Positions 2,532 through 48,743 of a DNA stretch of 64,000 nucleotides are shown here, in pieces; the first letter of the stretch is position 1, and every line of letters begins with the position of its first letter. The DNA comes from a virus (lineage: Duplodnaviria > Heunggongvirae > Uroviricota > Caudoviricetes), in the IMG/VR virus record IMGVR_UViG_2700988907_000001. One strand, written 5' to 3'. A program made the translations under genes and the position numbers. The notes below the pieces were generated by a model. That model saw only the letters and a list, made by a program, of their open reading frames with translations, had not been told where the DNA came from and searched no databases.

Positions 2532-2867
2532 ATGCCTTTGTTAAATGATGCTGGAAAATTAAATCAACGTTGTACTTTTTATTCTATGCAAGAAGTTGAA
2601 ACTATAAGAGGTAACACCAAAACTGTAGAAAAAGAAGAATTTTCTTGTTGGTGTACTATTAGACAAGCTAGAATAAGTGAAGTTCAAGCTGCTATAGGAA
2701 CTGAACATATAAATAGACAAACTCTTATCGTTAGAAGACAGCAAAGAAAAGAGATAAAAAACGATTGGACTGTAAAAGTAAAAGGTCAAATGTTCGATAT
2801 AGTAAGTGTTGTACCAGATTATGAAACAGAAATGCACGACATGATTGTTCTAAAGGAAAAACATTAA
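2532..2867 (+). CDS. Head closure / head-tail joining protein
   Basis: 111 aa; size and position between adaptor and tail completion genes. Translationally coupled (stop TAATG). Confidence 0.45.
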   Translation: MPLLNDAGKLNQRCTFYSMQEVETIRGNTKTVEKEEFSCWCTIRQARISEVQAAIGTEHINRQTLIVRRQQRKEIKNDWTVKVKGQMFDIVSVVPDYETEMHDMIVLKEKH

Positions 2868-3283
2868 TGGCTAAAGATGGAACAATAATAACAATCAAAG
2901 ATTCTGGTATTTCTGATGAGTTAGCGAGATTGGCACGAAATGTACCTAAAGTTAGAAATAAAGCGTTAAGAGAAGGTGCTAAACAGTTTGCCGAAGAAGT
3001 AGAAGCTGTGACACCCGTAGGACCACCACGTTCGTCAAATAAATATGGTGGTAAATGGTATTCTACTGTTCATATGAAAGATGACGTAAAATATCAAAAA
3101 CTACAAGACGAAAGATATATTGTGGGATATGGTAAAGCTACTGGTTGGCGCGCTCATTTTATTAACGATGGTACTATATATATACAACCAACATTCTTTT
3201 TTAATAAAGTGGTAGATGCTAAACTAGGTAACTCATATACAACTATAGAAAATATATTAAGAAGAGAGTTGTTTATGAAATGA
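2867..3283 (+). CDS. Tail completion / neck protein (HK97 gp10-like position)
   Basis: 138 aa; syntenic position. Stop overlaps next start (ATGA). Confidence 0.4.
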   Translation: MAKDGTIITIKDSGISDELARLARNVPKVRNKALREGAKQFAEEVEAVTPVGPPRSSNKYGGKWYSTVHMKDDVKYQKLQDERYIVGYGKATGWRAHFINDGTIYIQPTFFFNKVVDAKLGNSYTTIENILRRELFMK

Positions 3284-3669
3284 TTAGTGTTCAATTATCA
3301 GTAAAATTAAAAAGACTTGTAGCTGAACAAGTAAAAGATATTATACCATCAAAACATGTCTATCTATATAATATTCCAGAAGATGTTGATAGATTAAAAA
3401 CATTACCGTTTGTTCGTATTAATCATATAACTTCGACAGCAACAACACATTCTAGTAACGATATTAATTTCACTAGAGAGCGTTATCAAATTCAATTCTT
3501 CTTTGATGATGAAGATGAAAGAGATATAGAAGGAATGATTATAAAAACAGACAAACAATTAAGACAACATGGTTTTTATTATTCAACGGGATATGATGGG
3601 TATGACCCAGATTTAGAAGGAGTAATAACTGTCACACGACAGTATAATTATAGAAATAAAACAGATTAA
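3280..3669 (+). CDS. Tail terminator / neck protein
   Basis: 129 aa; lies immediately upstream of the major tail protein gene. Confidence 0.35.
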   Translation: MISVQLSVKLKRLVAEQVKDIIPSKHVYLYNIPEDVDRLKTLPFVRINHITSTATTHSSNDINFTRERYQIQFFFDDEDERDIEGMIIKTDKQLRQHGFYYSTGYDGYDPDLEGVITVTRQYNYRNKTD

Positions 3670-4470: not shown

Positions 4471-4815
4471 ATGGCTAAAGAAGTAACAATTAAATTAGAA
4501 GACGAGAAAGGTAAAGTACAAGAATACAAAGCAGGTAAAATTATGGCTCGTACTACACGAGATGCTATGAAGATGTACTCAAAATTAGAAGAAGTAGATA
4601 AGAACGGTAATCCAGTAGTATCAGAAGCAGAATCTTTTGACATGATGATTGATTTAGTAGCAAACTCTATTTTCAAAAAGAATGACGAAGTAACAGAAGA
4701 CACTATTCTTGACGGATTAACTTCTGATGAAGTTGCTACTGTACTACAAGAAGTAATCATGTCTGCTATGGGTATTTCAGACGAAGACGTCGAAGAAGCT
4801 AAAGAGGGAAAGTAG
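4471..4815 (+). CDS. Tail assembly chaperone (G-like)
   Basis: 114-aa acidic protein between the major tail and tape measure genes. It ends in the slippery heptamer GGGAAAG. Confidence 0.6.
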   Translation: MAKEVTIKLEDEKGKVQEYKAGKIMARTTRDAMKMYSKLEEVDKNGNPVVSEAESFDMMIDLVANSIFKKNDEVTEDTILDGLTSDEVATVLQEVIMSAMGISDEDVEEAKEGK

Positions 4816-5054
4816 AAACATTTTCCTGGACAAAGACGTATTACCAATATAATGAAATGATTGGTACATTAATAAAAGATTATGGTTTTCGTTGGTCTGA
4901 TTTTGATGATATGACTGACGAAGACTTGCACGATATTGTAAATGCAAAAGCAGAATACAAAAAGAAAAGACAACAAAACCAAGAAAACAAACAAAACAAC
5001 GTTTCTCCAGAAAATTCTTTGGAGGCTTTCTTGAAATCAAACGGATTACTATAA
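4471..5054 (+). CDS. Tail assembly chaperone GT-like fusion product via -1 frameshift at 4806-4812
   Basis: After slippage the -1 frame reads GKVETFSWTKTYYQYNEMIGTLIKDYGFRWSDFDD... and continues to the stop at 5052-5054. This is the canonical G/GT arrangement upstream of the tape measure gene. Confidence 0.5.
4806..4812 (+). promoter_or_regulatory. Programmed -1 ribosomal frameshift slippery site G_GGA_AAG
   Basis: The heptamer GGGAAAG sits in the X_XXY_YYZ register of the chaperone frame, 1 codon before its stop. The -1 frame stays open to 5054. Confidence 0.55.
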
Positions 5055-23513: not shown

Positions 23514-23601
23514 ATGGTAGCAAGTTTAACACACAAAGAAGCCGTAGAATATATTAAATCATTAGAAGGAAAATATGTTGACTTTGATGGCTGGTATGGG
23601 T
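23514..23601 (+). CDS. Endolysin exon 1 (CHAP domain N-terminus)
   Basis: RBS ggagagatgatatATG. MVASLTHKEAVEYIKSLEGKYVDFDGWYG parallels the phi11 lysin N-terminus (...GKQFNVDLWYGFQCFD). The exon ends with a U that pairs in P1. Confidence 0.8.
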
Positions 23602-23876
23602 TAATTGGTAGCCCATGTAAAACTTTTTGAATTGCTGGGAACCCCTAACGTAAAGACGAGGGCAATCAGCAGCGAAGCTCACATGGTAACAGTGTGTGAA
23701 CGTTCAACGACTATGTACTATCAATTGATAGGCAGCGGAAAGCACATTTGATATATGTGATGATATAGTCTGGTCTCATATGAAAATATGAGGCTTTCTT
23801 TATGAAAGCTATTAAATGTTATACAATATTATATAGAAATATATAATAGGAAAGGCATTTAATAAAACAAAAAACG
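23602..23876 (+). ncRNA. Group I self-splicing intron (ORF-less, 275 nt) in endolysin gene
   Basis: P1: exon atgggT pairs with intron gcccat (23611-23616), with a G.U pair at the splice site. P10: exon-2 accaat pairs with intron attggt (23604-23609). Four conserved elements are present: P (gaattgctgggaac), Q (caatcagcagcg), R (gttcaacgactatg) and S (gatgatatagtctgg). The intron ends in G. Splicing gives the in-frame junction WYG-Y-QCFDL, which is the canonical CHAP motif. Confidence 0.8.
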
Positions 23877-25240
23877 ACCAATGTTTTGATTTAGCTAACA
23901 AATATTGGAATAAATTATTTGGTGGACAATTAAAAGGTCAAGGCGCAGCTGATATTCCTAATGTTAATGATTTTAGTGGAAAAGCTACTGTTTATCAAAA
24001 TACAACAAGTTTCTTAGCAAAACCAGGAGACATTGTTGTATGGGGTAGAAACTTTGGTCAAGGATATGGTCATGTAGCAGTTGTTGTTGAAGCAACATTA
24101 GATTATATTGTTGTAATTGAGAATAACTGGTTAGGTGGTGGATGGACTAGTGGACCGGCACAAGGTGGTACTGGTTGGGAAAAAGCAACTAGACGACGTC
24201 ACAATTACGAGTTTCCTATGTGGTTCATTAGACCTATTTATAAAGATGATAAGAAAGTCAAATCCTACTCTACCAAAACTACAACTAAAAAACCAGCAGC
24301 TAAAAAGAAAAAAGCTAAAAAATTAAAATATATTAAAGATAATGTAAGAGGATATAAGCTACCCAAACGTAAAAAGAAAACACCAGATTTTATTGTATTA
24401 CACAACGATGCGGGAAGTAAAGGTGCTACTGCAACAGCTTATCGTAATGGATTAGTTAATGCACCATTATCAAGACTTGAAGCAGGTATAGCTGCATCTT
24501 ATATTGACAGAGATACTGTATGGCAAGCATTAGACGAAAATCAGGTTAACTGGCATTGTGCAAACTCATATGCTAATGAACATGGTTATGGGATAGAAAT
24601 ATGTCAGTCAATGGGTGCAGATAACAAAACATTCTTACAAAATGAGCAGGCGGCTTTCCAAGAAGCAGCTAGACTATTAAAAAAGTGGGGACTACCAGCT
24701 AACAGAAATACTGTAAGATTACATTGTGAATTTTATAGCACTAGTTGTCCACATAGAAGTGCTAAACTACACACAGGATTTGACCCTGTTACTCAAGGTT
24801 TATTACCTAAAGACAAACAGTTACAATTAAAAGATTATTTCATTAAACAAATCAGACAATATATGGATGGTAAAATACCTACTGCAACAGTTGTTAAAAG
24901 TACAAGTGCTTCTAGTAACACTGTTAAACCAGTAGCATCTGGTTGGAAACGTAATAATTACGGCACTTATTATAAATCAGAAAATGCAACTTATAGCAAT
25001 GGTAACACACCAATTATCACACGTACAGTAGGACCACTTAGAAGCTGTCCTCAAGCAGGATTGTTACCAGCTGGAGCAACTATTGTATATGATACAGTTT
25101 GTTTACAAGACTATCATGTTTGGGTAAGTTATGTAACTAACAAAGGTTACAGAGTATGGCTACCTATTAGAACATGGAATGGTGTAGCTCCTGGAAACGC
25201 AGGATATGCTGTAGGACCATTATGGGGATATATCAGCTAA
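23877..25240 (+). CDS. Endolysin exon 2 (rest of CHAP, then amidase_2 and SH3b cell-wall-binding domain)
   Basis: The frame is open from 23837 and contiguous to 25240. [10 protein letters not shown]...[26 protein letters not shown]...PMWFIRP (CHAP) is followed by [35 protein letters not shown]...[15 protein letters not shown] (amidase_2/PGRP) and an SH3_5-like C-terminus. Near-colinear with the phi11 endolysin. Spliced product about 483 aa. Confidence 0.85.
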
Positions 25241-32787: not shown

Positions 32788-33177
32788 TCAATGTTTTTTT
32801 AAAGAATATGATATTCTACTTACCTTATATCTAGAAACCCTTGCTCTAAAAGTATGCCCATTTGTTTTTATATTAGGTTGATTGGTAACTCCTCCACGAA
32901 ATCTCTGATTATAATTTTGCTCTGTTCTATCAGACCATTTACAATTAGAGGGTTCATAGTTGCCATTTACATCTATTCTATCTAAAGAATGGTTTGGAGA
33001 TGGTCTGTCTCCCATATCCTCATAAAAATTCTCAAATGATTCTAGCCATCTATCGCATACTTTAATTCCACGTCCTCCATAATTTTTATACCCCTTTCTA
33101 TTTTTATTATAGCATCTTCTTTTCATTTCAAACCATGCTTTATATTCTGGAGTATTTGACATTCCGTGTGTTCTCAT
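32788..33177 (-). CDS. HNH-family homing endonuclease-like protein
   Basis: ...PEYKAWFEMKRRCYNKNRKGYKNYGGRGIKVCDRW...SLDRIDVNGNYEPSNCKW fits the phage HNH_3/AP2-associated endonuclease pattern. Confidence 0.45.
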   Translation of the reverse strand: MRTHGMSNTPEYKAWFEMKRRCYNKNRKGYKNYGGRGIKVCDRWLESFENFYEDMGDRPSPNHSLDRIDVNGNYEPSNCKWSDRTEQNYNQRFRGGVTNQPNIKTNGHTFRARVSRYKVSRISYSLKKH

Positions 33178-34185: not shown

Positions 34186-36573
34186 CTATTTTTTATCTAA
34201 AATATAAATATATTCTTTTCCACGTTTTTCGATTTTGATAACTGGTTTTCTATATATCTTGTTACCTTTTACATTAAATGCCTCACCATTCTTATAACCT
34301 AATACAACTAGTTTAGTTCCACGTTCCCACCAACTACCATCATTTTCAAGTTTCTCTTGATAATGAGCATAGTGTCGTCTATTTATTTTTAGTGTAACTA
34401 CACCAGACTCTTTAGTTAAAAGATAAACAAGTCTTTTCATGTTGTTATATCCAACTACTACACCAGTGATAGCACTAATTTTATACTCCTTAAAACCACG
34501 TGAATTAGTTTTTAAGAAAGGTAAGTTCTCTAAATCTTTAAACTCTGAAATATCATGAGTTTTACTTACTTGTTCTGTGTCTATAACAAATTCATCAGAA
34601 TTGAATAATATAGTATCAATTTCCCATTCTGGAATAGTGCCTTGACATTCTTTTACCCAATATTCTTGTCGTTTTTTCTTAGTAAATTCTTTGGCGTATT
34701 GTGGTTTTTTAATTTCTTCTTTTAAAGGTTTTATTTCTTTGTTGTAATATTTCTCAAATGATTTAATATCTATTTCTAGTTTATCTGAGAACTTGTAATC
34801 TACATGTTTAGAATAGTTTTTAATAAATTCTTGCTCTATTTCTTTATTCATTGGTTCTTTATTTCGACCTTTGATTCTACTTCTAAAATCATGCAGCGCC
34901 AATAGTTTATTGTATTTATCTGGTATTATATCCTTATAATAATCTAATTGAGACATTGTTACTTTTTCTTTTTGTGGTATTTCTAGCTTTACTAATTTAG
35001 CCATTATATGGCGTCTATCTAATTCTTCTAATGAATCCATAGCACCAGATTTAATTAATGAAATAGTTTTTTTAGTGCTTGTTAGTTTAGTATCAACCAT
35101 TTTTTCATAATAATCTTTTAATGATTTAAATGGTCTATTTTCAATAATAGCATCTAATGTGTTAGTATCTAAACCAATTATAGGTTTTAATCCATATAAT
35201 ACCTTCCCGTCTTTAGCTATAAATTTCAACTCTGATTTATTAATATCTGGCGTAACAACATCATCAGACATACTATTTACAGCTTTAGATACCTCACCAT
35301 AATCTGTACCTTTTTCTAAATCACCTTCAAGCCCAGACAAAATATTGAGGCAACTTGTTTTCCATGTATCTACACCATAATAATAACAGATATTCATTTC
35401 AATCATTAGTATTAATGTATACGCTACTACATGAGGCAGTGAAAATGCGTAGGAAAATTGAAGTGCAAACTGTTCTTCAAGTATATATCTAGCAAATTCT
35501 TCTCGTTGACCATTTTTTTTCATAATTTTCATAAACTCTTGAGAAGCACTTTCAATCTTTTTCTCATCTTTTTTCCCTACTGATTTTCTAAATTTATTTG
35601 CAAAAGTTAATCCGCCATCGGCTATTTTAGGGTCAATGATAATATTCATCAAGATTTCCTGTGTGTCGCAAATACCAGTTCTTGGCAATAAATGTTTTTC
35701 CATGAGTTCTTGTTCATGTTTAGTTAGTCCATACTTATCCATATCTTGATACCATTCATTAATATCCTGTTTATATCTTACAAACTTATCAATTGGCTGT
35801 TCTCCCTCTGTTTGTAAACGAATAATAGTATTAGTAATAGCTACCTCGTCAAAAGTATTAGGTTTAATTTTTCTCATAGCATTTCTTGCTACTAAACTTG
35901 ACATTTGAAAAGCATCAAATACTTCACCATCTGATAATAATTTAAACATTTGTTTTGAAGTTAAATCTAATACATCTGGGTGTAAATATTTATTATAAGT
36001 TTCTCTTAATGTACCTTGCCATTTTATTTTGCCATTTTCTAACAATAAATCCATTGCTTCTCTAATACGACCTAATGCAGAAATTGAAAGAAAATCTTCC
36101 TTCAACTCCCCTGCAAATATTCCATCATCAGCATTAAATTGAGTGACTTCTAAACCTTTTGTAGTTTTCATCATTGCGTTTACATCTAAAAATGAACGAG
36201 GATAGAAGATAACAGAACTAGCGTGTTGAGAACGACCGCTAGTTAACCCTTCTATAGATAACATAACTTCTTTTAATCCTTCATGCTTCTCTACACGTTC
36301 AATAAATTCTTTAACAGGTTTTCTATCTTTTTTTTCATTTCCAAAAAAACAGTCAGAAACAGACCATAAAGCAGCTCCTTCTGATGGTATTAAGTTGGCT
36401 ATATTGTGTTGTTCAGCAACATCTAATCCATAACCTCTAGTTGCTGTGATAACTGTCGACTTAGGTCCTTCTGTAGTAAAAGTACAGCTATTTAGAATCT
36501 TTTCTGAACCATAACGTTGTTTAGCAAGTTCGATAATTTCTTCACGTTTAGATGCTTCTGTATCAATATCAAT
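34186..36573 (-). CDS. dnaE: DNA polymerase III alpha (DnaE-type) exon 2
   Basis: The frame is open upstream of the ORF-track Met, back to IDIDTEASKREEIIELAKQRYGSEKILNSCTFTT... This is the DnaE 'DIDIDF...ITFGT' region. The downstream GRSQHASSVIF corresponds to the HAAGVVIS palm motif. Confidence 0.75.
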   Translation of the reverse strand: MDIDTEASKREEIIELAKQRYGSEKILNSCTFTTEGPKSTVITATRGYGLDVAEQHNIANLIPSEGAALWSVSDCFFGNEKKDRKPVKEFIERVEKHEGLKEVMLSIEGLTSGRSQHASSVIFYPRSFLDVNAMMKTTKGLEVTQFNADDGIFAGELKEDFLSISALGRIREAMDLLLENGKIKWQGTLRETYNKYLHPDVLDLTSKQMFKLLSDGEVFDAFQMSSLVARNAMRKIKPNTFDEVAITNTIIRLQTEGEQPIDKFVRYKQDINEWYQDMDKYGLTKHEQELMEKHLLPRTGICDTQEILMNIIIDPKIADGGLTFANKFRKSVGKKDEKKIESASQEFMKIMKKNGQREEFARYILEEQFALQFSYAFSLPHVVAYTLILMIEMNICYYYGVDTWKTSCLNILSGLEGDLEKGTDYGEVSKAVNSMSDDVVTPDINKSELKFIAKDGKVLYGLKPIIGLDTNTLDAIIENRPFKSLKDYYEKMVDTKLTSTKKTISLIKSGAMDSLEELDRRHIMAKLVKLEIPQKEKVTMSQLDYYKDIIPDKYNKLLALHDFRSRIKGRNKEPMNKEIEQEFIKNYSKHVDYKFSDKLEIDIKSFEKYYNKEIKPLKEEIKKPQYAKEFTKKKRQEYWVKECQGTIPEWEIDTILFNSDEFVIDTEQVSKTHDISEFKDLENLPFLKTNSRGFKEYKISAITGVVVGYNNMKRLVYLLTKESGVVTLKINRRHYAHYQEKLENDGSWWERGTKLVVLGYKNGEAFNVKGNKIYRKPVIKIEKRGKEYIYILDKK

Positions 36574-36891
36574 CTTATAGCACCCCTAGTTTCCTAGTAT
36601 TTTTAAGGGAATAGACTATTTATTCATTCTATAAAGAATGGGTGTATTTTCGATTTAAAGGGTTTTCACCTACTGTTATTTCAAACAGCCCTACTCCTAT
36701 TGCTAGTATTTATTAATTGCCCTAGCTTATGGATAGTCGTTGAACCTCTACTATAAAAGTAGTTGGCACACCGTTGTCATATGTTAAAAACACTTAGACT
36801 TTCAGTGTTAGCAGATTTGTAATCCACACCTCATTATGAGTTAAACACCTCGTAATCTACAATATTACTATTATAGACGACTATATTATTA
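36574..36891 (-). ncRNA. Group I intron (ORF-less, about 318 nt) in dnaE
   Basis: Exon 1 ends ...RFLSKERQSLPD with a terminal U. The intron begins TAATAA. Its RNA sense contains the R element ggttcaacgactatcc, an S-like aaatagtctatt and a P-like aaatctgctaac, and it ends ...ctataaG. Joining restores SLPD-IDID, the universal DnaE SMPDIDIDF motif. Exact splice sites are +/- a few nt. Confidence 0.65.
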
Positions 36892-38259
36892 ATCAGGCAA
36901 TGACTGTCTTTCTTTACTTAAGAAACGATAATATGGTAAATCATAATCTAATGGATTAAACTGAACAATATCTAACAAATAGTTTGTATAATAGCATGCA
37001 GCTGAACCACGTGCAGGTCCTACTAAACTAACTTTCCACATCATGTCAATAATATCTTGTGTTAACACAAAATAACTTGATAATGGCTGTCCTAATCCTT
37101 CTGATATTTCCCATATTTGCTCTAGCTCAATCTCAATTCTATCTAAATGCTCTTTATTAAATTCTTGATTATGTGACAACATACCTTCTCCAATAAGGTG
37201 CAGATAGTATCTATCCATATCTCTTTCAGAGTGTTTAAATTTATTGATATATTCATAATCATTTAGATAATCTTTGAATAAATTCCTATCTGTATATTCT
37301 GGAATATCAATATTAGGAACCTGTGTTTCTTTTTCGAACTCAATAGGCTCTAATTTATCCATTATCTCATGAGTGTTTCTAATCAGCTCATCTAATAATT
37401 CTTTATCAAAGTATTCTAACAGCTCATCTCTATCCATTACATATGTTGTATTATAAAAACTATCAACCTCTCTATCACCCTGAGAGGCGTTTAAATAGAC
37501 CTTATGAGCAAAGGCTTGGTCTTTGTGTAAATAATGGGCGTCTGTTGTTACGATAGGTTTTAAATCATATACTTTACAAAGTTTTAATAACATATCATTT
37601 ATAATTTGTTGTTCTTGTTTCACATCAGCATTTGATTTATCATGTTTAATTGCTGGTTGTAATTCAAGATAGAAATTATCTTTGCCTACTAGATTAATAA
37701 AGAACATAATAAACTCATGTATTTTCTTTTTATCTTCTTTAGAGTTTGATTTATGATAATCTAAAATATATTGGCTCAATGGCGACCCAGCACATGCCGA
37801 GCTGAAAACAATATCATCTTCATATCCTTTTATCAATTCAGTTAAATCATCATAATACGTCGGAGTTCTTTCCATACCTCTAAAAAAGAAGCTATTTTGC
37901 CACTCTCTAGTTGTTAAACGCTTTAGAAATTCATATCCATTTTGATTCTTGGCTAAAACTAAGAAATGATAAAATTTTGTCTTTTCATTGTTTTCTCTTG
38001 CATGATTAACAGTTTCTCTATCTAACAGATAGAACTCGTCACCATAACCGAGAGTAAAGTCTTTAAATTTATCTGGATTGTTCTTAATGTGCCTATGCGC
38101 CCTTATATGACTACTAATTGTTGCATGGTCTGTGATAGCTATACCCGGTAAACCAAGTTCTAAAGCATAATCTAATAAATCCTCTGGCTTATTGATTGAA
38201 TCTAGGAGACGAAAATTACTCGCATCTGTATGGTTGTGAGTAAGGAAAGGTTCGTTCAA
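36892..38259 (-). CDS. dnaE: DNA polymerase III alpha (DnaE-type) exon 1 (PHP domain)
   Basis: FLTHNHTDASNFRLLDS...GIAITDHATI is the PHP domain. ...GPARGSAACYYTNYLLDIVQFNPLDYDLPYYRFLSKERQSLPD matches GRGSAAGSLVAYxLGITxxDPLxYDLLFERFLNPERVSMPD. Confidence 0.8.
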
Positions 38260-44252: not shown

Positions 44253-45047
44253 TCAACACTTTTTTATCTCCATTTTTAAACTTCCATATCTTCCTATATT
44301 TTTTAATGGTAAACCCATTTTTATAAATCGTTTTTTTATAGTAAATGTCGATATTCCTGTTTCCATAGCTATAACTCTTAAACTTTGATTTTTATTTACA
44401 TAATTATATAACCATTTATAGTAATAAAAACTATCTGGTATTTGTTTTATTTTATCATTATTAATTTGAGTGTATGATTTTCCTTTTACTAAATTTTCTG
44501 TTATATCTTTATAAGTTCTATCATGTCTTATATCATAGTGTGTGGTGTTAGTCAAAGAAGGATACTTTTCTTTTAATTCTTCTCTTGTTAATCTTGATGT
44601 ATATATGTCTATAACTTCGTCTTTAGTAAATAATCTACTGTTTTCTTTTTTGCTTTTATAATTTTTTACTCCTAAGGAGTGGTGGGTATTTTCATAAGAA
44701 TATACCCACTCTATATTTTTTATTCGGTTGTCGTTTCTTTTGCTATTTTTATGATTTATACAATTTCTATCATCTTTTTTGAGTAACATCATTTCTGCTA
44801 TAGCTCTATGATAAAATATTTTTCCTTGATTATGTTTTTCCTTTTGTATATTATTATAATAATACCCTTCTTTTACTTGTGTTGTTAATATTTTTTTGTA
44901 TATGTTAGAGTATAATTTATTACCTTCTATATTTATATAATATCTTCCTCTTGTGCTATATACAGGGATAAAAATATAACCATCAATACTTTTTATATTT
45001 ATTGGCATAATTTGATTTTTTAATTCCATATTTATCTTCCTTACCAT
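44253..45047 (-). CDS. Free-standing HNH homing endonuclease (second copy) with NUMOD-like repeats
   Basis: ...IFYHRAIAEMMLLKKDDRNCINHKNSKRNDNRIKNIEWVYSYEN is an HNH_3 core. Repeated ...Y..IT.. modules follow. Confidence 0.6.
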   Translation of the reverse strand: MVRKINMELKNQIMPINIKSIDGYIFIPVYSTRGRYYINIEGNKLYSNIYKKILTTQVKEGYYYNNIQKEKHNQGKIFYHRAIAEMMLLKKDDRNCINHKNSKRNDNRIKNIEWVYSYENTHHSLGVKNYKSKKENSRLFTKDEVIDIYTSRLTREELKEKYPSLTNTTHYDIRHDRTYKDITENLVKGKSYTQINNDKIKQIPDSFYYYKWLYNYVNKNQSLRVIAMETGISTFTIKKRFIKMGLPLKNIGRYGSLKMEIKKC

Positions 45048-45787
45048 TCTAAAGAATCTGCCACTGTGCTTATTACCCCTCTGAAATTATGAGTAAATTC
45101 GTGATGTCTAGCAAAATCATGTTTTTTAAATAACTCTATATAAGGTTCAAATCCAGATTTATTTCTTTTAATATCAGATTGCTCTGGTTGACCCTCTATA
45201 ACAACTGTACAAGAATCGTGCATACGAGTTAAAGTTTTCTTTAATTCACCTCTTGTAAAGTTTTGTGATTCACTAATTATACATGTTACATTTTGTATAT
45301 TAGAACCTCTAAGGAAAGTATGGAGGGTTTGTGTGACAAAAGCACCATCTATTTTTTCCTTATCTACATTAGGGTCTAACTCTAATAATGTTTTTATTAC
45401 TTGCATTGGATTTAAATTTAATTCAATCAAAGCATCATGTAAAGGAGAAAAATAGTCTAAGGCTTTAGTGTTTAAATCTCCTGGTCTATGACCTACAGAA
45501 TTTTCTTCTGCTGGACTCATAATAAACATAATTTCTTTTCCTTTGTTTAAATAATCTGCGTAAGCACAAACAATACTTGTAAACGTTTTTGCACTTCCAC
45601 TCTTTGATGAGTTAGTTAAAACTAAAACTTTATCATTAAAGAAATCCTCACAAAACTGTAATTGTTCTTGTGTAGCTTTATTTAAAAAATCATCAAATAC
45701 TGTATGTTCTAGCATGTTGTATTGTACTAACGGAAAATTTTGTAATTTATATTTTAACTCTTTATCCATTTTTGCCAAAGTTATCAT
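45041..45787 (-). CDS. PhoH-like protein
   Basis: GHRPGDLNTKALDYFSPLHDAL parallels GFLPGDLxEKVDPYLRPLYDAL. IISESQNFTRGELKKTLTRMHDSCTVVIEGQPEQSDIKRNKSGF parallels ILDEAQNTTxxQMKMFLTRxGxxSKMVITGDxTQIDL. The Walker A is degenerate (SSKSGSAKT). Confidence 0.6.
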   Translation of the reverse strand: MITLAKMDKELKYKLQNFPLVQYNMLEHTVFDDFLNKATQEQLQFCEDFFNDKVLVLTNSSKSGSAKTFTSIVCAYADYLNKGKEIMFIMSPAEENSVGHRPGDLNTKALDYFSPLHDALIELNLNPMQVIKTLLELDPNVDKEKIDGAFVTQTLHTFLRGSNIQNVTCIISESQNFTRGELKKTLTRMHDSCTVVIEGQPEQSDIKRNKSGFEPYIELFKKHDFARHHEFTHNFRGVISTVADSLEW

Positions 45788-46318
45788 CCTTTATATATGT
45801 TCTCATAATAGTATACATTGAGAGCAATAGCATCTGCTACGTCATCAAGTAACTTACCTCTTTCTGTGTATATTTCTGGCATATCACTTGAAAAATAAGC
45901 CTTTAAAAATTCTGCTACTATTTCTTTTTTATTGAATTGTTTTAACTCTTCTTTTGTATAAAAACATTTATTAATTAAATACTTTTTACAATATGCTTTT
46001 AATGTCGCATTATGAATATCTATAGCTTCACTGTTATTATTATATAAGTAATATTCAAGTATCGCATGTGAATATAGTACATTTTGCGCTGTTGCAGAAC
46101 GTCCAACAAATGGCTCTTCTTTACATATAACATTTGGATTATAATTGTCTATTTTTGATATTATATCTGATATATGTCTATCTATGCGTTCTATTGTATC
46201 TTTTTTCTTGTCTGAAACCATTAATTCACACAATAAAACATTGATTTTACTAGAACTGTATTCAGCGACACAAATACCTGTCTTAGCGAAATGAATAGTC
46301 TAAACTTACAACAATCAT
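45784..46318 (-). pseudogene. RuvC-like Holliday junction resolvase with frameshift near 46285
   Basis: A strong RBS (ggaggagaagtctaccATG) at 46318 starts MIVVSLDYSFR*, a RuvC-like N-terminus (compare MKILSLDLS). The protein continues in another frame, ..AKTGICVAEYSSS...DAIALNVYYY, as the rest of the RuvC fold to 45784. A one-nucleotide frame offset lies between 46283 and 46295. Confidence 0.55.
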
Positions 46319-46357
46319 GGTAGACTTCTCCTCCCTGTCTATAATTTTCCAAAACTT

Positions 46358-46591
46358 TTATTTATAAAACACATCATATCCTACAATAAATTTAGGAACT
46401 ATTATTGAATACCCATCTTCATTTCTATGTGATATCTTAATAAGGTTGTGTCTATTTTCTAAACCTTTTTCTATTTTGTTCAATACTTCTTTTAAAGGCG
46501 TACTAGTTAATTCATCAGTAATACATAGTATTCCACCATCTTTAAAATTTGCACAATCTGTTATTACAATTATTGCTTTTATCTTATCCAT
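46358..46591 (-). CDS. Hypothetical protein
   Basis: 77 aa. Confidence 0.3.
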   Translation of the reverse strand: MDKIKAIIVITDCANFKDGGILCITDELTSTPLKEVLNKIEKGLENRHNLIKISHRNEDGYSIIVPKFIVGYDVFYK

Positions 46592-46608
46592 TATTACTTC
46601 TCCCCTTT

Positions 46609-46848
46609 TTATAAATCCTCATTATTTTTTATTTCCTTAAGTGTTGAATTTACTATAATTTCAGTATAATTTTTTACTATAAAGATAGTATAAACAATAA
46701 ATGTAACCAACCAAATATTAATATCTCCTTTAAATAACAAATTTACTAGCCACATAACACCAAAAGTAAAAAAGAATGATACGATTTGGTGGATTATTGT
46801 CACTACATAAGCAAATAATTTAATTACTTTAAATCTTGTATCTTCCAA
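46609..46848 (-). CDS. Small membrane protein (2 TM)
   Basis: 79 aa, hydrophobic. Confidence 0.35.
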   Translation of the reverse strand: MEDTRFKVIKLFAYVVTIIHQIVSFFFTFGVMWLVNLLFKGDINIWLVTFIVYTIFIVKNYTEIIVNSTLKEIKNNEDL

Positions 46849-47006
46849 TGTTATTTCTCCTTTTTAAAAATTTAAAGGGGAAATATCCCTTTATTTAAAC
46901 TTTAATCGCCTATTCATCATAATTATTTTCTCCTTCTTAATTGATATTTTTTATTACATATACATAATATCATGTGTATTATATAATTATATAATGTCAA
47001 TACTTT

Positions 47007-48743
47007 TTAAAAATCAATCCCCCACAACCCTAGCTCATCATTTTCTTCAACTTTTAAAATTTCATAATCTTTAATTACAATTTGAGATTGCTGCTTGTTA
47101 CCAAAGTAGTTTATACGTGGCTCTCCTACAATATTCATTGTGATTTTATTATTTACAATGTGATTATCAATAATATTTTTAATGTCTTCTGGTGCATTGA
47201 ATAAAATAAATGTTACATTATTATCAAAGAAAGATAGCACAGAACCTCTTATATTGATACAAGCCTTATTAAACGTAATTTCTTCATAACCAAATAAAGG
47301 ATATACTACGTCTCCTCCTAGCACGTCTTTTTCTAACTCTACTCTAATAATATCTTGTTCATTAGGTCTGTTAGTTAAAACATCAACCTCATATACGTTA
47401 GATGTTTTAAACTTATATTCTTCTATATATTCATATAGACTGTTTAAATATCCTTTTGGAATACTAAAACCAGCTGCTTGACTATGACCTTGTACAAAAT
47501 AAAATAATTCACTTTTTGCTAGAATAGACTTAAAGTCTATATTTTGTGCTCTTATAGAACCAGAAAAATAATCATTTTTAAATTTACCAACCATCACTGG
47601 CTTTCTATATTTGTCTGCTAGTTTCATAGCAACTAAACCATTAATAGATGATGGAGAATTGTCATCAGATACAGCTACGATAATTTTTTCGTTATATAAA
47701 AATTCAATATTCTTAATAGCATCTTTAACAATCTTGTCTTGTTTAGTTTTAATACTTTCACATTGTTTTGCTACAATTTCTGGTAATGTCATTTCTGTAG
47801 GAATCTTATCAAACTTGCCAGTTTTTCTGTTTTTCTTTCTAACCTCAATTGTTTCAGTTTCTTTTGAATCTGTAATCATAGCTTCAAATAACCTTTGCTT
47901 CTCTTCTAGTGTACCAATACGAGTAACAGCATTAATCATTGATATAATACTGAAAGACCAGTCTCTTGTCGTTGGATTGTCAATTCCTTTACGTTCCATT
48001 ACTGCTTTAATAAATGGGTTGTTTATATTTCTTACTCCTGTATATGTTAAGTATCTAATTTCTGGGTCAGCAATATTACTAACATCCCCAGTTTGACCTA
48101 GAGTAACCAAGTCTAAATATTTATCAACCAATTCTTTGGAGTATATTTTATTATTAAAATTAAAACGATACAATGCACATTTACAGAACAAATAAACCAT
48201 TCCTACACCAGTAAAATTTTTATTAATATCAGAAATAATTTGATTATTAAAAACATTTTCGTGAACATTTTTAACATTGATTTCGTGGTGGTCTAACACC
48301 AGTGTTTCAATATTCTCTGAATTAAGTTCTTCTAATTGTTTTGTATCGTTTGAAGCAGCGTCGGGTATTACTACTAACGTAGAATCATTACTCATATTTT
48401 TTAGTTCTGTCATTACTTCGGTAGTTAATCCATGTGTTTTACCGTCTGGGATAATAAAATTAATATTGTCGTACTCTAAATCGTTTTTAATAAATCTATA
48501 TAATAATGCCGAAGCTGAAAAACCGTCCATATCTTGGTCAATTAAAATTACAATATTTTTATTTTCTTTTAAAGCATTGTACAATATGTTTGTTGCTTGA
48601 GAAAACTCTTCTGGAATATTTTTCATAATAGTTAACATTTTTTTATCTGGATTCTTATGATATTCTAAATCGCTAACCCCACCTCTAATTAAAATATCAT
48701 CTATTAAATCTCCTGTAATCTGTTCTTTTAGCTCAAGTTCCAT
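47007..48743 (-). CDS. DHH-family phosphoesterase, RecJ-like single-strand DNA exonuclease
   Basis: Motifs ILIDQDMDGFSA (DxD...DG) and LVLDHH (DHH), then a DHHA1-like region. Confidence 0.7.
   Translation of the reverse strand: MELELKEQITGDLIDDILIRGGVSDLEYHKNPDKKMLTIMKNIPEEFSQATNILYNALKENKNIVILIDQDMDGFSASALLYRFIKNDLEYDNINFIIPDGKTHGLTTEVMTELKNMSNDSTLVVIPDAASNDTKQLEELNSENIETLVLDHHEINVKNVHENVFNNQIISDINKNFTGVGMVYLFCKCALYRFNFNNKIYSKELVDKYLDLVTLGQTGDVSNIADPEIRYLTYTGVRNINNPFIKAVMERKGIDNPTTRDWSFSIISMINAVTRIGTLEEKQRLFEAMITDSKETETIEVRKKNRKTGKFDKIPTEMTLPEIVAKQCESIKTKQDKIVKDAIKNIEFLYNEKIIVAVSDDNSPSSINGLVAMKLADKYRKPVMVGKFKNDYFSGSIRAQNIDFKSILAKSELFYFVQGHSQAAGFSIPKGYLNSLYEYIEEYKFKTSNVYEVDVLTNRPNEQDIIRVELEKDVLGGDVVYPLFGYEEITFNKACINIRGSVLSFFDNNVTFILFNAPEDIKNIIDNHIVNNKITMNIVGEPRINYFGNKQQSQIVIKDYEILKVEENDELGLWGIDF

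What the first reader, a model, noticed from the sequence alone, without database searches (positions are those of the whole stretch)
34186..38259. dnaE (Pol III alpha) interrupted by a 318-nt ORF-less group I intron of the same family
The PHP-domain ORF ends ...RFLSKERQSLPD* and the next ORF is open upstream to IDIDTEASK... Joining them recreates the invariant DnaE SMPD-IDIDF junction.

The intervening RNA (minus strand, 36574-36891) begins UAAUAA and ends in G. It carries the same R-element core (GGUUCAACGACUAUCC) seen in the lysin intron, plus P-like and S-like elements. The exon-1 tail UGAU can pair with intron GUCG (nt 11-14) as P1.

I could not find a clean P10. Boundaries are therefore placed by protein homology plus the U / omega-G rule.
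Basis: partly seen in the sequence, partly recalled or inferred. Interest (0 to 1): 0.7.

Follow-up and report, generated by a model that had tools for sequence, protein, structure and literature searches.

The report
Group I intron splitting phage polymerase gene
The DNA polymerase gene of Staphylococcus phage SEP9 is interrupted, between the codons for two of its catalytic aspartates, by a 318-base self-splicing-type (group I) intron that has lost its homing-endonuclease gene; this is a real but ordinary phage feature, and the public record of this genome already joins the two halves at this junction.

Summary
The observation and the interpretation both hold. The window is Staphylococcus phage vB_SepS_SEP9 (KF929199).

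- **Gene layout (minus strand).** The DnaE-type polymerase gene runs 38259-34186. Exon 1 is 38259-36892. A 318-nt insert occupies 36891-36574; it starts UAAUAA and ends in G. Exon 2 is 36573-34186.
- **Spliced product.** Removing the insert gives a 1251-aa protein. It aligns without a gap to Pol III alpha across ...SLPD|IDID..., and it is identical to GenBank AHG23972.1, which is annotated as a two-piece join.
- **Group I core.** The insert has P1 with a U·G pair, P2, P3-P9, the R and S elements, P7.1/P7.2 and a terminal G. RF00028 scores it only 31 bits (gathering score 50), but the accepted phage K lysK intron scores just 33 bits.
- **Relatives.** Nine other phage or metagenome copies sit at the same codon boundary. 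In the ten-sequence alignment, 15 base pairs show compensatory changes. Five copies carry a LAGLIDADG endonuclease gene in the P1 loop and five, including SEP9, do not. Close relatives (6ec, CF9, S-CoN_Ph14) have an uninterrupted site.

This is a mobile IA2-like intron caught after loss of its endonuclease gene. Splicing has not been shown experimentally. The kind is known and this instance is already annotated, so interest is low. The one atypical feature is a covariation-supported hairpin between P3 and P4.

The parts
36892..38259 (-). Exon 1 of the DnaE-type DNA polymerase (456 codons, TTG start). It encodes the PHP domain and the start of the palm, and ends with the codon for Asp456.
   Evidence: ORF list. 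Pfam PHP at residues 8-202. Asp456 aligns with Thermus aquaticus D463 in the printed alignment; that D463 is a catalytic residue is from my memory of the Pol III alpha structure papers.
36574..36891 (-). ORF-less group I intron (IA2-like), 318 nt, beginning UAAUAA (two in-frame stops) and ending in omega-G.
   Evidence: Boundaries fixed by intron-less alleles.
34186..36573 (-). Exon 2 of the polymerase (795 codons plus stop). It begins IDID (Asp458) and has no in-frame ATG/GTG/TTG for 103 codons.
36878..36881 (-). Internal guide sequence GUCG (intron nt 11-14). It pairs with the exon-1 tail UGAU, giving U(-1)·G11 at the 5' splice site; u1-a10 and a2-u9 extend P1.
   Evidence: Read from the sequence. 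Invariant in all 10 homologues, so there is no covariation test.
36856..36877 (-). P2 hairpin (nt 15-36), 9 bp, capped by a GNRA tetraloop (GUAA here; GAGA or GUGA in relatives).
   Evidence: Two pairs with compensatory changes (helix 1). Also predicted by RNAalifold.
36845..36849 (-). P3 5' strand GGUGU (nt 43-47), preferred assignment. An identical GGUGU at nt 62-66 (36826-36830) is the alternative.
   Evidence: U45-A249 becomes C-G in the L006/L010/L062/L023 clade. The alternative gives U·G instead.
36813..36825 (-). Extra hairpin (nt 67-79) between P3 and P4, where canonical group I introns have only a ~3-nt J3/4.
   Evidence: Three of its five pairs show compensatory changes (helix 4). 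Absent from phage K lysK and from other related introns.
36745..36808 (-). P4-P5-P6 domain (nt 84-147): P4 84-89/119-124, J4/5 AAA, P5 93-95/114-116, P6 126-127/146-147 plus 130-134/140-144.
   Evidence: Matches the RF00028 consensus. Compensatory changes in P5 and P6; P4 is invariant.
36734..36745 (-). R element GUUCAACGACUA, with the P7 5' strand (G154-A158).
   Evidence: P7 is invariant in all homologues.
36659..36733 (-). P7.1/P7.2 peripheral subdomain (nt 159-233): UCC...GGA closing GCUAG/CUAGC, then CUGUU/AACAG, then a third small hairpin 221-223/231-233.
   Evidence: Compensatory changes in P7.2 and in the third hairpin. About 75% identity to the same region of Kayvirus lysK introns.
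36625..36645 (-). P3 3' strand ACACC (nt 247-251) followed directly by the P8 hairpin (nt 252-267).
   Evidence: Two compensatory pairs in P8 (helix 12); P3 as above.
36574..36618 (-). S element / P7 3' strand UAGUC (nt 274-278), P9.0, the P9 hairpin with a GAAA loop, and the terminal omega-G (nt 318 = 36574).
   Evidence: These pairs are invariant.

Best explanation
The 318 nt at 36574-36891 (minus strand) are a group I intron of the IA type (IA2-like, with P7.1/P7.2). It interrupts the phage's only DnaE-type replicative polymerase gene between the codons for Asp456 and Ile457.

**Inferred mechanism.** The gene is transcribed as one pre-mRNA. The two UAA codons at the start of the intron stop ribosomes on unspliced RNA. 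The ribozyme folds, pairs the exon-1 tail UGAU with its guide GUCG (U·G at the splice site) and binds guanosine in P7. It then carries out the two transesterifications, using its terminal G at the 3' splice site. This joins ...CCU GAU to AUU GAU... and restores the PD-IDID active-site motif of a 1251-aa polymerase.

**Evolutionary state.** The intron belongs to a mobile family. In some relatives the family carries a LAGLIDADG homing endonuclease gene in the P1 loop. SEP9 holds the endonuclease-less state of the homing cycle.

**Shown:** exact boundaries, restoration of the ORF, the conserved core with compensatory changes, and site polymorphism among relatives.

**Inferred:** that the RNA actually splices, and whether it needs any cofactor.
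For: - **ORF restoration.** Excision restores one ORF identical to AHG23972.1, and GenBank annotates a two-piece join. The product aligns without a gap to Pol III alpha across the junction.
- **Family match.** RF00028 is the only meaningful RNA-family hit: 31 bits, E = 6e-6 over an 801-nt search. The phage K lysK intron scores only 33.4 bits with the same model, and the PMBT8 copy of this intron scores 39.3 bits. The gathering score of 50 therefore misses this subclass.
- **Homologues.** Ten homologues all sit at LPD|IDID.
- **Covariation.** The proposed structure is 92.7% paired. Fifteen pairs changed on both sides, against 6.8 +/- 1.6 in shuffles (0 of 500 reach it) and 0-2 in slid controls. 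RNAalifold independently recovers P2, P3, P4, P5, P6, P7.1, P7.2, P8 and P9.
- **Folding energy.** MFE z-score is -2.7.
- **Polymorphism.** Intron-less alleles occur in 6ec, CF9 and S-CoN_Ph14, and SA2 has an uninterrupted 1256-aa orthologue (PMC6787349). A LAGLIDADG ORF is present in RQ1, L006, L010 and L023 (and probably L062, whose upstream end is cut off) and absent in SEP9, L007, L030, L051 and PMBT8.
- **Transcription and translation.** No terminator and no above-background promoter lie in the insert. Exon 2 has no canonical start codon for 103 codons.
Against: - No transcript or splicing data exist for this phage in anything I could read. The 2014 SEP9 paper is not in the library.
- The Rfam score is below the curated gathering threshold (31 against 50).
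- P1 has only four exon pairs, no P10 can be drawn, and P1, P4, P7 and P9 are invariant and so untested by covariation.
- The ten homologues are closely related (mean column identity 92%). The compensatory changes therefore reflect few independent events.
- One or two hairpins between P3 and P4 do not fit the canonical layout, and the choice of P3 5' strand (nt 43-47 or 62-66) is not settled.
Confidence: 0.93

Rival explanations
1. The insert is not removed. The polymerase is made as two separate polypeptides (PHP/N-terminal part and palm-fingers-C-terminal part) that associate non-covalently.
For: Automatic annotation of relatives calls two separate genes: RQ1 and PMBT8 and the IMG proteins P0002/P0003. 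An SD-like AGGGG lies 9 nt upstream of the AUU codon that opens exon 2 (read).
Against: - Exon 2 has no ATG/GTG/TTG in frame for 103 codons, so a conventional start would lose Asp458 and about 100 palm residues.
- The break falls between two adjacent active-site aspartates.
- A spacer would not keep a group I core with compensatory base changes.
- Close relatives encode the same protein uninterrupted.
Confidence: 0.03
2. The insert is a group I intron by descent but is no longer an autonomous ribozyme. It is either a decaying remnant that splices poorly or an intron that depends on a phage or host protein cofactor.
For: It has lost its endonuclease gene. P1 is short and P10 is absent. The Rfam score is low. 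The atypical P3-P4 insertion could disturb J3/4.
Against: SEP9 was isolated as a plaque-forming lytic phage, and this is the only DnaE-type polymerase seen in the window. The core helices and the R and S elements are intact and invariant across ten copies, whereas the loops vary; that pattern indicates purifying selection on the ribozyme. The known lysK intron scores equally low with RF00028.
Confidence: 0.04

Closest known systems
Group I introns of Staphylococcus Kayvirus/Twort-like phages (e.g. the phage K lysK intron encoding I-KsaI, and the Twort orf142 introns)
   Same: Same host genus. Same 3'-half layout: P7, P7.1 (UCC...GGA), P7.2, AAAUCGAAA, P3', P8, J8/7, UAGUC, P9 with a GAAA loop, ending CUAUAAG. 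About 75% identity over intron nt 145-244. P2 has the same GUAA tetraloop. Both score below the RF00028 gathering threshold.
   Different: A different host gene (a DnaE-type polymerase rather than the lysin or a family-A polymerase). The 5' half is not alignable. In phage K the ORF (annotated 'putative endonuclease', HNH in related records) lies downstream of the P4-P5 region, whereas this family carries a LAGLIDADG ORF in the P1 loop or none. Extra hairpin(s) lie between P3 and P4.
Self-splicing IA2 introns in phage DNA polymerase genes (Bacillus phage SPO1, Bastille I-BasI, cyanophage Pf-WMP3)
   Same: Group IA2-type ribozymes inserted in conserved polymerase motifs of lytic phages, often with a homing endonuclease (PMC3984707, PMC3428280).
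   Different: Those polymerases are family A (Pol I-like). Here the host gene is a family C (DnaE/Pol III alpha-like) polymerase, and the site lies between Asp456 and Asp458 of the PDxD motif.
The lysin-gene group I intron in the same window (23592-23792, plus strand)
   Same: Both are RF00028-type introns, share GUUCAACGACUAU and the UAGUC S element, and lie in one phage genome.
   Different: No specific sequence relationship is detectable. The lysin intron is compact, has a single P7.1-like hairpin and a canonical J3/4, and scores 91.5 bits against 31 here.
Inteins in DnaE and other replisome genes
   Same: A selfish element with a LAGLIDADG endonuclease lodged in a conserved motif of the same gene. 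6ec and two metagenome relatives carry a 404-405-aa Hint+LAGLIDADG intein at residue 156 of this very polymerase.
   Different: An intein is removed at the protein level and is in frame. The SEP9 insert has in-frame stops and is removed, by inference, at the RNA level.

Membership tests
Group I intron (Rfam RF00028) | Score at or above the curated gathering threshold of the covariance model | tested here: not met
   31.0 bits against 50 (E = 6e-6 in an 801-nt search); no hit in the whole-window gathering scan. The annotated phage K lysK intron scores 33.4 bits and the PMBT8 copy 39.3 bits. The threshold is therefore insensitive for this subclass and is not a criterion that excludes membership.
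Group I intron (Rfam RF00028) | Conserved core helices P3-P8 with the P3/P7 pseudoknot, supported by comparative analysis | tested here: met
   Across 73 proposed pairs the structure is 92.7% paired. Fifteen pairs carry double changes against 6.8 +/- 1.6 in shuffles, and slid controls give 0-2. RNAalifold agrees. P4 and P7 are invariant and so uninformative.
Group I intron (Rfam RF00028) | U at the last exon position forming a U·G wobble with the internal guide sequence in P1 | tested here: met
   Exon 1 ends ...CCUGAU, and G11 of GUCG pairs with U(-1). All intron-bearing alleles have GAU, while the intron-less alleles examined have GAC. The pairing itself is invariant and has no covariation support.
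Group I intron (Rfam RF00028) | Terminal guanosine (omega-G) at the 3' end of the intron | tested here: met
   The intron ends ...CUAUAAG, with G at 36574. The same is true in all ten homologues.
Group I intron (Rfam RF00028) | Precise excision restores an uninterrupted, conserved coding sequence | tested here: met
   with comparison to intron-less alleles.
Group I intron (Rfam RF00028) | GTP-dependent self-splicing, or splicing in vivo | not testable with these tools
   No transcript data are available. The SEP9 paper is not in the library.
Subgroup IA (IA2-like) | Extra helices P7.1 and P7.2 between P7 and the 3' strand of P3; P2 present; no P5abc extension | tested here: met
   Hairpins at nt 159-197 and 203-220, plus a third at 221-233, lie between P7 and P3' and show compensatory changes. 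They are homologous to the same region of the phage K lysK intron. The definition of the subgroup is from my knowledge of the Michel-Westhof classification and PMC3984707.
Subgroup IA (IA2-like) | Short (~3 nt) J3/4 joining P3 directly to P4 | tested here: not met
   Between 16 and 36 nt separate P3 from P4, including a covariation-supported hairpin at nt 67-79. Related introns have the canonical UAAUU/AAUU linker.
Mobile (homing) intron | Intron-encoded homing endonuclease | tested here: not met
   No ORF in the SEP9 copy. Homologues RQ1, L006, L010 and L023 carry a roughly 270-aa LAGLIDADG ORF between the 5' splice site and the guide sequence. The Pfam match (LAGLIDADG_3, E = 2.5e-10) was obtained for the RQ1 ORF.
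Mobile (homing) intron | Presence/absence polymorphism at one identical site among close relatives | tested here: met
   Present in SEP9, RQ1, PMBT8 and 7 metagenome/virome contigs. Absent in 6ec, CF9, S-CoN_Ph14, S-CoN_Ph1 and S-CoN_Ph11.

The most novel reading that the evidence does not exclude
This intron family may be a structural variant of IA2 introns. In it, the normally 3-nt J3/4 linker has been expanded into one or two hairpins. A duplicated GAGGUGU also offers two alternative 5' partners for P3, and a competitor for the P4 strand ACACU. That arrangement could act as a folding switch, for example one coupled to translation of exon 1.
Probability: 0.12. Interest if true: 0.4.

Novelty: already known. 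Interest (0 to 1): 0.22.

Why it matters
**Practical value: annotation.** In RQ1, PMBT8 and the IMG contigs the same polymerase is called as two or three unrelated genes. Rfam's gathering threshold misses this intron family entirely. A family-specific model would repair these annotations.

**Biological value: a compact illustration of established ideas.**
- Selfish elements lodge in the most conserved codons. Here one intron lies between Asp456 and Asp458, a second intron in PMBT8 lies after Asp616, and an intein lies in the PHP domain of 6ec.
- One genus shows all stages of the homing cycle: empty site, intron with endonuclease, and intron without endonuclease.

None of this changes current understanding.

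Tried and rejected
- **Whole-window Rfam gathering scan**: no hit at the dnaE site; only the local E-value scan finds it.
- **Global MAFFT of SEP9 against intron-less CF9**: the gap was misplaced, so I read the junction by eye and confirmed it with a regex over translations.
- **Canonical P3 next to P4.** The Rfam alignment's P3 (AUCUGCU) is full of mismatches. UGCUA/UAGCA (nt 79-83/187-191) conflicts with the P7.1 hairpin, which is homologous to the one in phage K. UCUGCU/AGUAGG (nt 77-82 with 197-202) would leave two extra hairpins between P8 and P7. All three were rejected.
- **My first P7.2 outer stem** (nt 201-203/230-232): replaced by the covarying hairpin 221-223/231-233.
- **My first P9a numbering** was off by one, giving 0% paired; it is corrected in the text (295-298/303-306).
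- **Rfam gathering scan of eight metagenome loci sharing the R-P7.1 motif**: only one unrelated hit, so it did not help with the structure.
- **Literature.** Searches for a description of this intron found none. The SEP9 paper could not be read.
- **Flanking ORFs.** A Pfam scan found nothing, including the 129-aa ORF at 32788-33177 that looked HNH-like to me.
- **Other explanations.** An intein is excluded by the in-frame stops. A group II intron is excluded by the size and the absence of any Rfam hit. Translational bypass would not explain a conserved ribozyme core.
Full report
**Identity of the window.** The 4074-nt region is 100% identical to Staphylococcus phage vB_SepS_SEP9 (KF929199/NC_023582, genus Sextaecvirus), record positions 44399-48472. 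The record annotates SEP9_050 'DNA polymerase' over exactly these coordinates as a CDS joined from two pieces.

**The observation.**
- On the minus strand, a 456-codon ORF (38259-36892, TTG start) ends ...RFLSKERQSLPD and is followed by TAA TAA.
- The downstream frame is open from just after a TAG inside the insert and reads ...KIDIDTEASKREE.... Its first ATG/GTG/TTG is 103 codons further on, at 36264.
- The insert is 318 nt (36891-36574) with 33% G+C, against 30-31% in the exons. It has no ORF of 40 aa or more on either strand.
- Joining 36892 to 36573 gives a 1251-aa protein with one stop, at the end.
- Pfam finds PHP (8-202), DNA_pol3_alpha (364-618, one stretch spanning the junction at 456/457), the finger domain and HHH_6.
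- phmmer against the PDB aligns residues 8-983 to Thermus aquaticus Pol III alpha (E = 6e-62). There is no gap at 'rflskerqslpdididteaskree' against 'RFLNPERVSMPDIDTDFSDRERD'.
- Counting along that printed alignment, SEP9 Asp456 and Asp458 correspond to Taq D463 and D465, and SEP9 Asp616 to Taq D618. That these are the catalytic residues is from my memory of the Pol III alpha structure papers. The insert therefore separates the first two catalytic aspartates onto different exons.
- The spliced sequence is found, residue for residue, as AHG23972.1/YP_009007719.1. The depositors therefore used the same junction in 2014.

**Boundaries.**
- Intron-less relatives fix the junction. CF9, 6ec and S-CoN_Ph14 read ...TTA CCC GAC|ATC GAC ATC GAT..., and phage SA2 has an uninterrupted 1256-aa orthologue (PMC6787349).
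- SEP9 reads ...TTG CCT GAT|[318 nt]|ATT GAT ATT GAT.
- The first intron base (T) differs from the first exon-2 base (A), and the last intron base (G) differs from the last exon-1 base (T). There is thus no sliding ambiguity.
- The exon ends in U and the intron in G, as group I chemistry requires.

**Is it a group I intron?**
- The whole-window Rfam scan at gathering thresholds reports only the lysin intron (23592-23792, 91.5 bits) and an S808 match.
- A local scan finds RF00028 at 36591-36882 (minus strand) with 31.0 bits, E = 6e-6, below the gathering score of 50.
- This shortfall is a property of the model, not of the sequence. The annotated two-exon lysK intron of phage K scores 33.4 bits, and the PMBT8 copy of the present intron scores 39.3 bits.

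**Homologues.**
- blastn against phage records finds full-length relatives (about 87% identity) in phages RQ1 and PMBT8. It also finds roughly 75% matches of nt 145-244 to the lysK introns of many Kayvirus phages.
- Pattern scans of virome, metagenome and genome collections, followed by an nhmmer profile, added seven more full-length copies: L006, L007, L010, L023, L030, L051 and L062.
- All are flanked by ...LPD and IDID... of a DnaE-type gene, where the flank is present.

**Structure.** All numbers below are SEP9 intron positions; window coordinate = 36892 - nt.

| Element | Positions | Notes |
|---|---|---|
| P1 | exon UGAU with G11-G14 | U(-1)·G11; extended by u1-a10 and a2-u9 |
| P2 | 15-23/28-36 | GNRA loop |
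| P3 | 43-47/247-251 | preferred assignment |
| P4 | 84-89/119-124 | J4/5 is AAA |
| P5 | 93-95/114-116 | |
| P6 | 126-127/146-147 and 130-134/140-144 | |
| R element | 147-158 | GUUCAACGACUA |
| P7 | 154-158/274-278 | probably also A152-U279 with C153 bulged |
| P7.1 | 159-161/195-197 closing 166-170/186-190 | |
| P7.2 | 204-208/215-219 | |
| Third hairpin | 221-223/231-233 | |
| P8 | 252-257/262-267 | J8/7 is AAUAAA |
| P9.0 | 280-281/314-315 | |
| P9 | 283-285/307-309 with 295-298/303-306 | GAAA loop |
| Omega-G | 318 | |

**Comparative support for the structure.**
- On the ten-sequence alignment (A2) the structure is 92.7% paired. Fifteen pairs changed on both sides, against 6.8 +/- 1.6 in column shuffles (0 of 500 reach it) and 0-2 when the partners are slid by 1-3 columns.
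- The compensatory changes lie in P2, P3, the nt 67-79 hairpin, P5, P6, P7.2 and P8.
- P1, P4, P7, P7.1 and P9 never vary and are therefore neither supported nor contradicted.
- RNAalifold, run without my structure, recovers the same helices, including P3 = 43-47/247-251. It also adds the covarying 221/233 pair.
- The single-sequence MFE is -73.4 kcal/mol, z = -2.7.
- The sequences are close (92% mean column identity), so these changes represent few independent events.
The 3' exon AUUGAU has no complement next to the guide sequence.

**An atypical feature.**
- Canonical group I introns join P3 to P4 by about 3 nt. This is so in the lysin intron of this window, in phage K lysK and in more distant relatives that share the R-P7.1 motif.
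- Here 16-36 nt intervene. They contain a hairpin (nt 67-79) in which three of five pairs covary.
- GAGGUGU occurs twice (nt 41-47 and 60-66). Either copy can pair with ACACC at 247-251.
- The U45C/A249G double change in the L006 clade favours the first copy. With the second copy the same change gives a U·G pair. I could not settle this point.
- Alternative canonical placements of P3 were examined and rejected.

**Mobility.**
- In RQ1, L006, L010 and L023, an insertion of roughly 850 nt lies between the third intron nucleotide and the guide sequence, that is, in the P1 loop. It carries a roughly 270-aa double-motif LAGLIDADG ORF. The last codons of that ORF run through the guide sequence, and its stop lies in the 5' strand of P2. 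The Pfam match (LAGLIDADG_3, E = 2.5e-10) was obtained for the RQ1 ORF. L062 shows the same ORF tail, but its upstream end is cut off.
- SEP9, L007, L030, L051 and PMBT8 have only 8-10 nt there.
- RQ1 (ORF present) and L051 (ORF absent) have the most similar ribozymes. The endonuclease gene was therefore gained or lost recently.
- All intron-bearing alleles read TTGCCTGAT|ATTGAY. The intron-less ones examined read TTACCCGAC|ATCGAC. This fits co-conversion of flanks, the U(-1) requirement, or target immunity.
- The same gene hosts other selfish elements. A 404-405-aa Hint+LAGLIDADG intein (C...HN|C) sits at residue 156 in 6ec, L010 and L023.
- A second group I-like insert with a NUMOD4/HNH ORF lies directly after the Asp616 codon in PMBT8. 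It has U at -1, R-like and S elements, and ends in G.

**Rival readings.**
- Separate translation of the two halves is unlikely. Exon 2 lacks a canonical start and would lose Asp458. There is no terminator and no above-background promoter in the insert. A spacer would not conserve a ribozyme core.
- A decayed, non-autonomous intron cannot be excluded without experiments. It is disfavoured by the invariant core set against variable loops, and by the fact that SEP9 is a viable lytic phage.

**Relation to the lysin intron.** Both are RF00028-type introns and share GUUCAACGACUAU. Neither blastn (one place in the SEP9 record) nor the nhmmer family profile links them. 'Same family' holds only at the level of group I.

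**Novelty.**
- Group I introns in phage polymerase, ribonucleotide reductase and lysin genes are textbook material (PMC3984707). The split of SEP9_050 has been in GenBank since 2014.
- I found no paper in the held library that describes the RNA, its endonuclease-bearing relatives or its position in the active site. The SEP9 paper itself could not be read.
- Verdict: the finding is correct, well placed and ordinary.

Noticed in passing
window 23514-23954 (+), Rfam hit 23592-23792: The lysin-gene group I intron (RF00028, 91.5 bits) is not reflected in the GenBank annotation. The short N-terminal exon is called 'hypothetical protein' SEP9_028 (window 23514-23630), and the endolysin CDS starts only at window 23954. 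The in-frame continuation ...[11 protein letters not shown]... begins near 23880, so the intron probably extends about 85 nt beyond the Rfam match.
   Followed up: partly
window 24796-25050 (+): A strong Rfam match to 'Staphylococcus sRNA 808' (207.6 bits) lies inside the annotated endolysin coding sequence (window 23954-25240). A weaker match lies in the phage K lysK gene (L070 1957-2219, 31.5 bits). The Rfam family may simply model a conserved lysin coding segment.
   Followed up: no
L066 (phage 6ec) 1265-2479; also L010 1451-2662 and L023 1028-2239: The orthologous polymerase carries an in-frame 404-405-aa intein (starts Cys, ends His-Asn, followed by Cys; Hint plus LAGLIDADG_3/Hom_end domains). 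It lies at SSA|C, residue 156 of the SEP9 protein, in the PHP domain. The 6ec genome paper does not mention it, and the CDS is annotated as one 1655-aa 'DNA polymerase'.
   Followed up: partly
L005 (phage PMBT8) 4294-5186: A second group I-like insert with a NUMOD4+HNH_3 ORF (4477-5034) lies directly after the codon for the third catalytic aspartate (SEP9 Asp616, ELKxD|FLSISALG). It has a GAUGAUAUAGUC S element and ends in G. RF00028 gives no hit at E <= 0.01, and the three exons are annotated as unrelated hypothetical proteins.
   Followed up: partly
L004 (RQ1) 2659-3520; L006 about 415-1275: The LAGLIDADG homing-endonuclease ORF of this intron family sits in the P1 loop and reads through the internal guide sequence into P2 (...YSRL*). 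The endonuclease gene and the ribozyme therefore share sequence.
   Followed up: partly
whole window: A comparative-genomics paper (PMC6507118) states that SEP9 has 45.8% G+C, 10% above other staphylococcal phages. This 64-kb window, about 70% of the genome, is 30.2% G+C, so that figure looks wrong.
   Followed up: no
L002 (CF9) 3101-3161; L067-L069 (S-CoN phages): The polymerase of several relatives is annotated as 2-4 overlapping CDSs, with frame changes at positions that carry no insert (for example CF9 near residue 540). These look like frameshifts, either sequencing errors or real, rather than introns.
   Followed up: no
L062 (genome contigs CAAFUL010000045.1): A contig binned as 'uncultured Johnsonella sp.' MAG carries the Sextaecvirus-type polymerase exon 2 with this intron (87% aa identity to SEP9). 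It is probably a staphylococcal phage contig mis-binned into the MAG.
   Followed up: no
window 32788-33177 (-): A 129-aa ORF about 1 kb downstream of the polymerase (GenBank SEP9_046, hypothetical) contains ...SLDRIDVNGNYEPSNCKW.... This reminded me of phage HNH endonucleases, but Pfam gives no match at E <= 0.01.
   Followed up: partly
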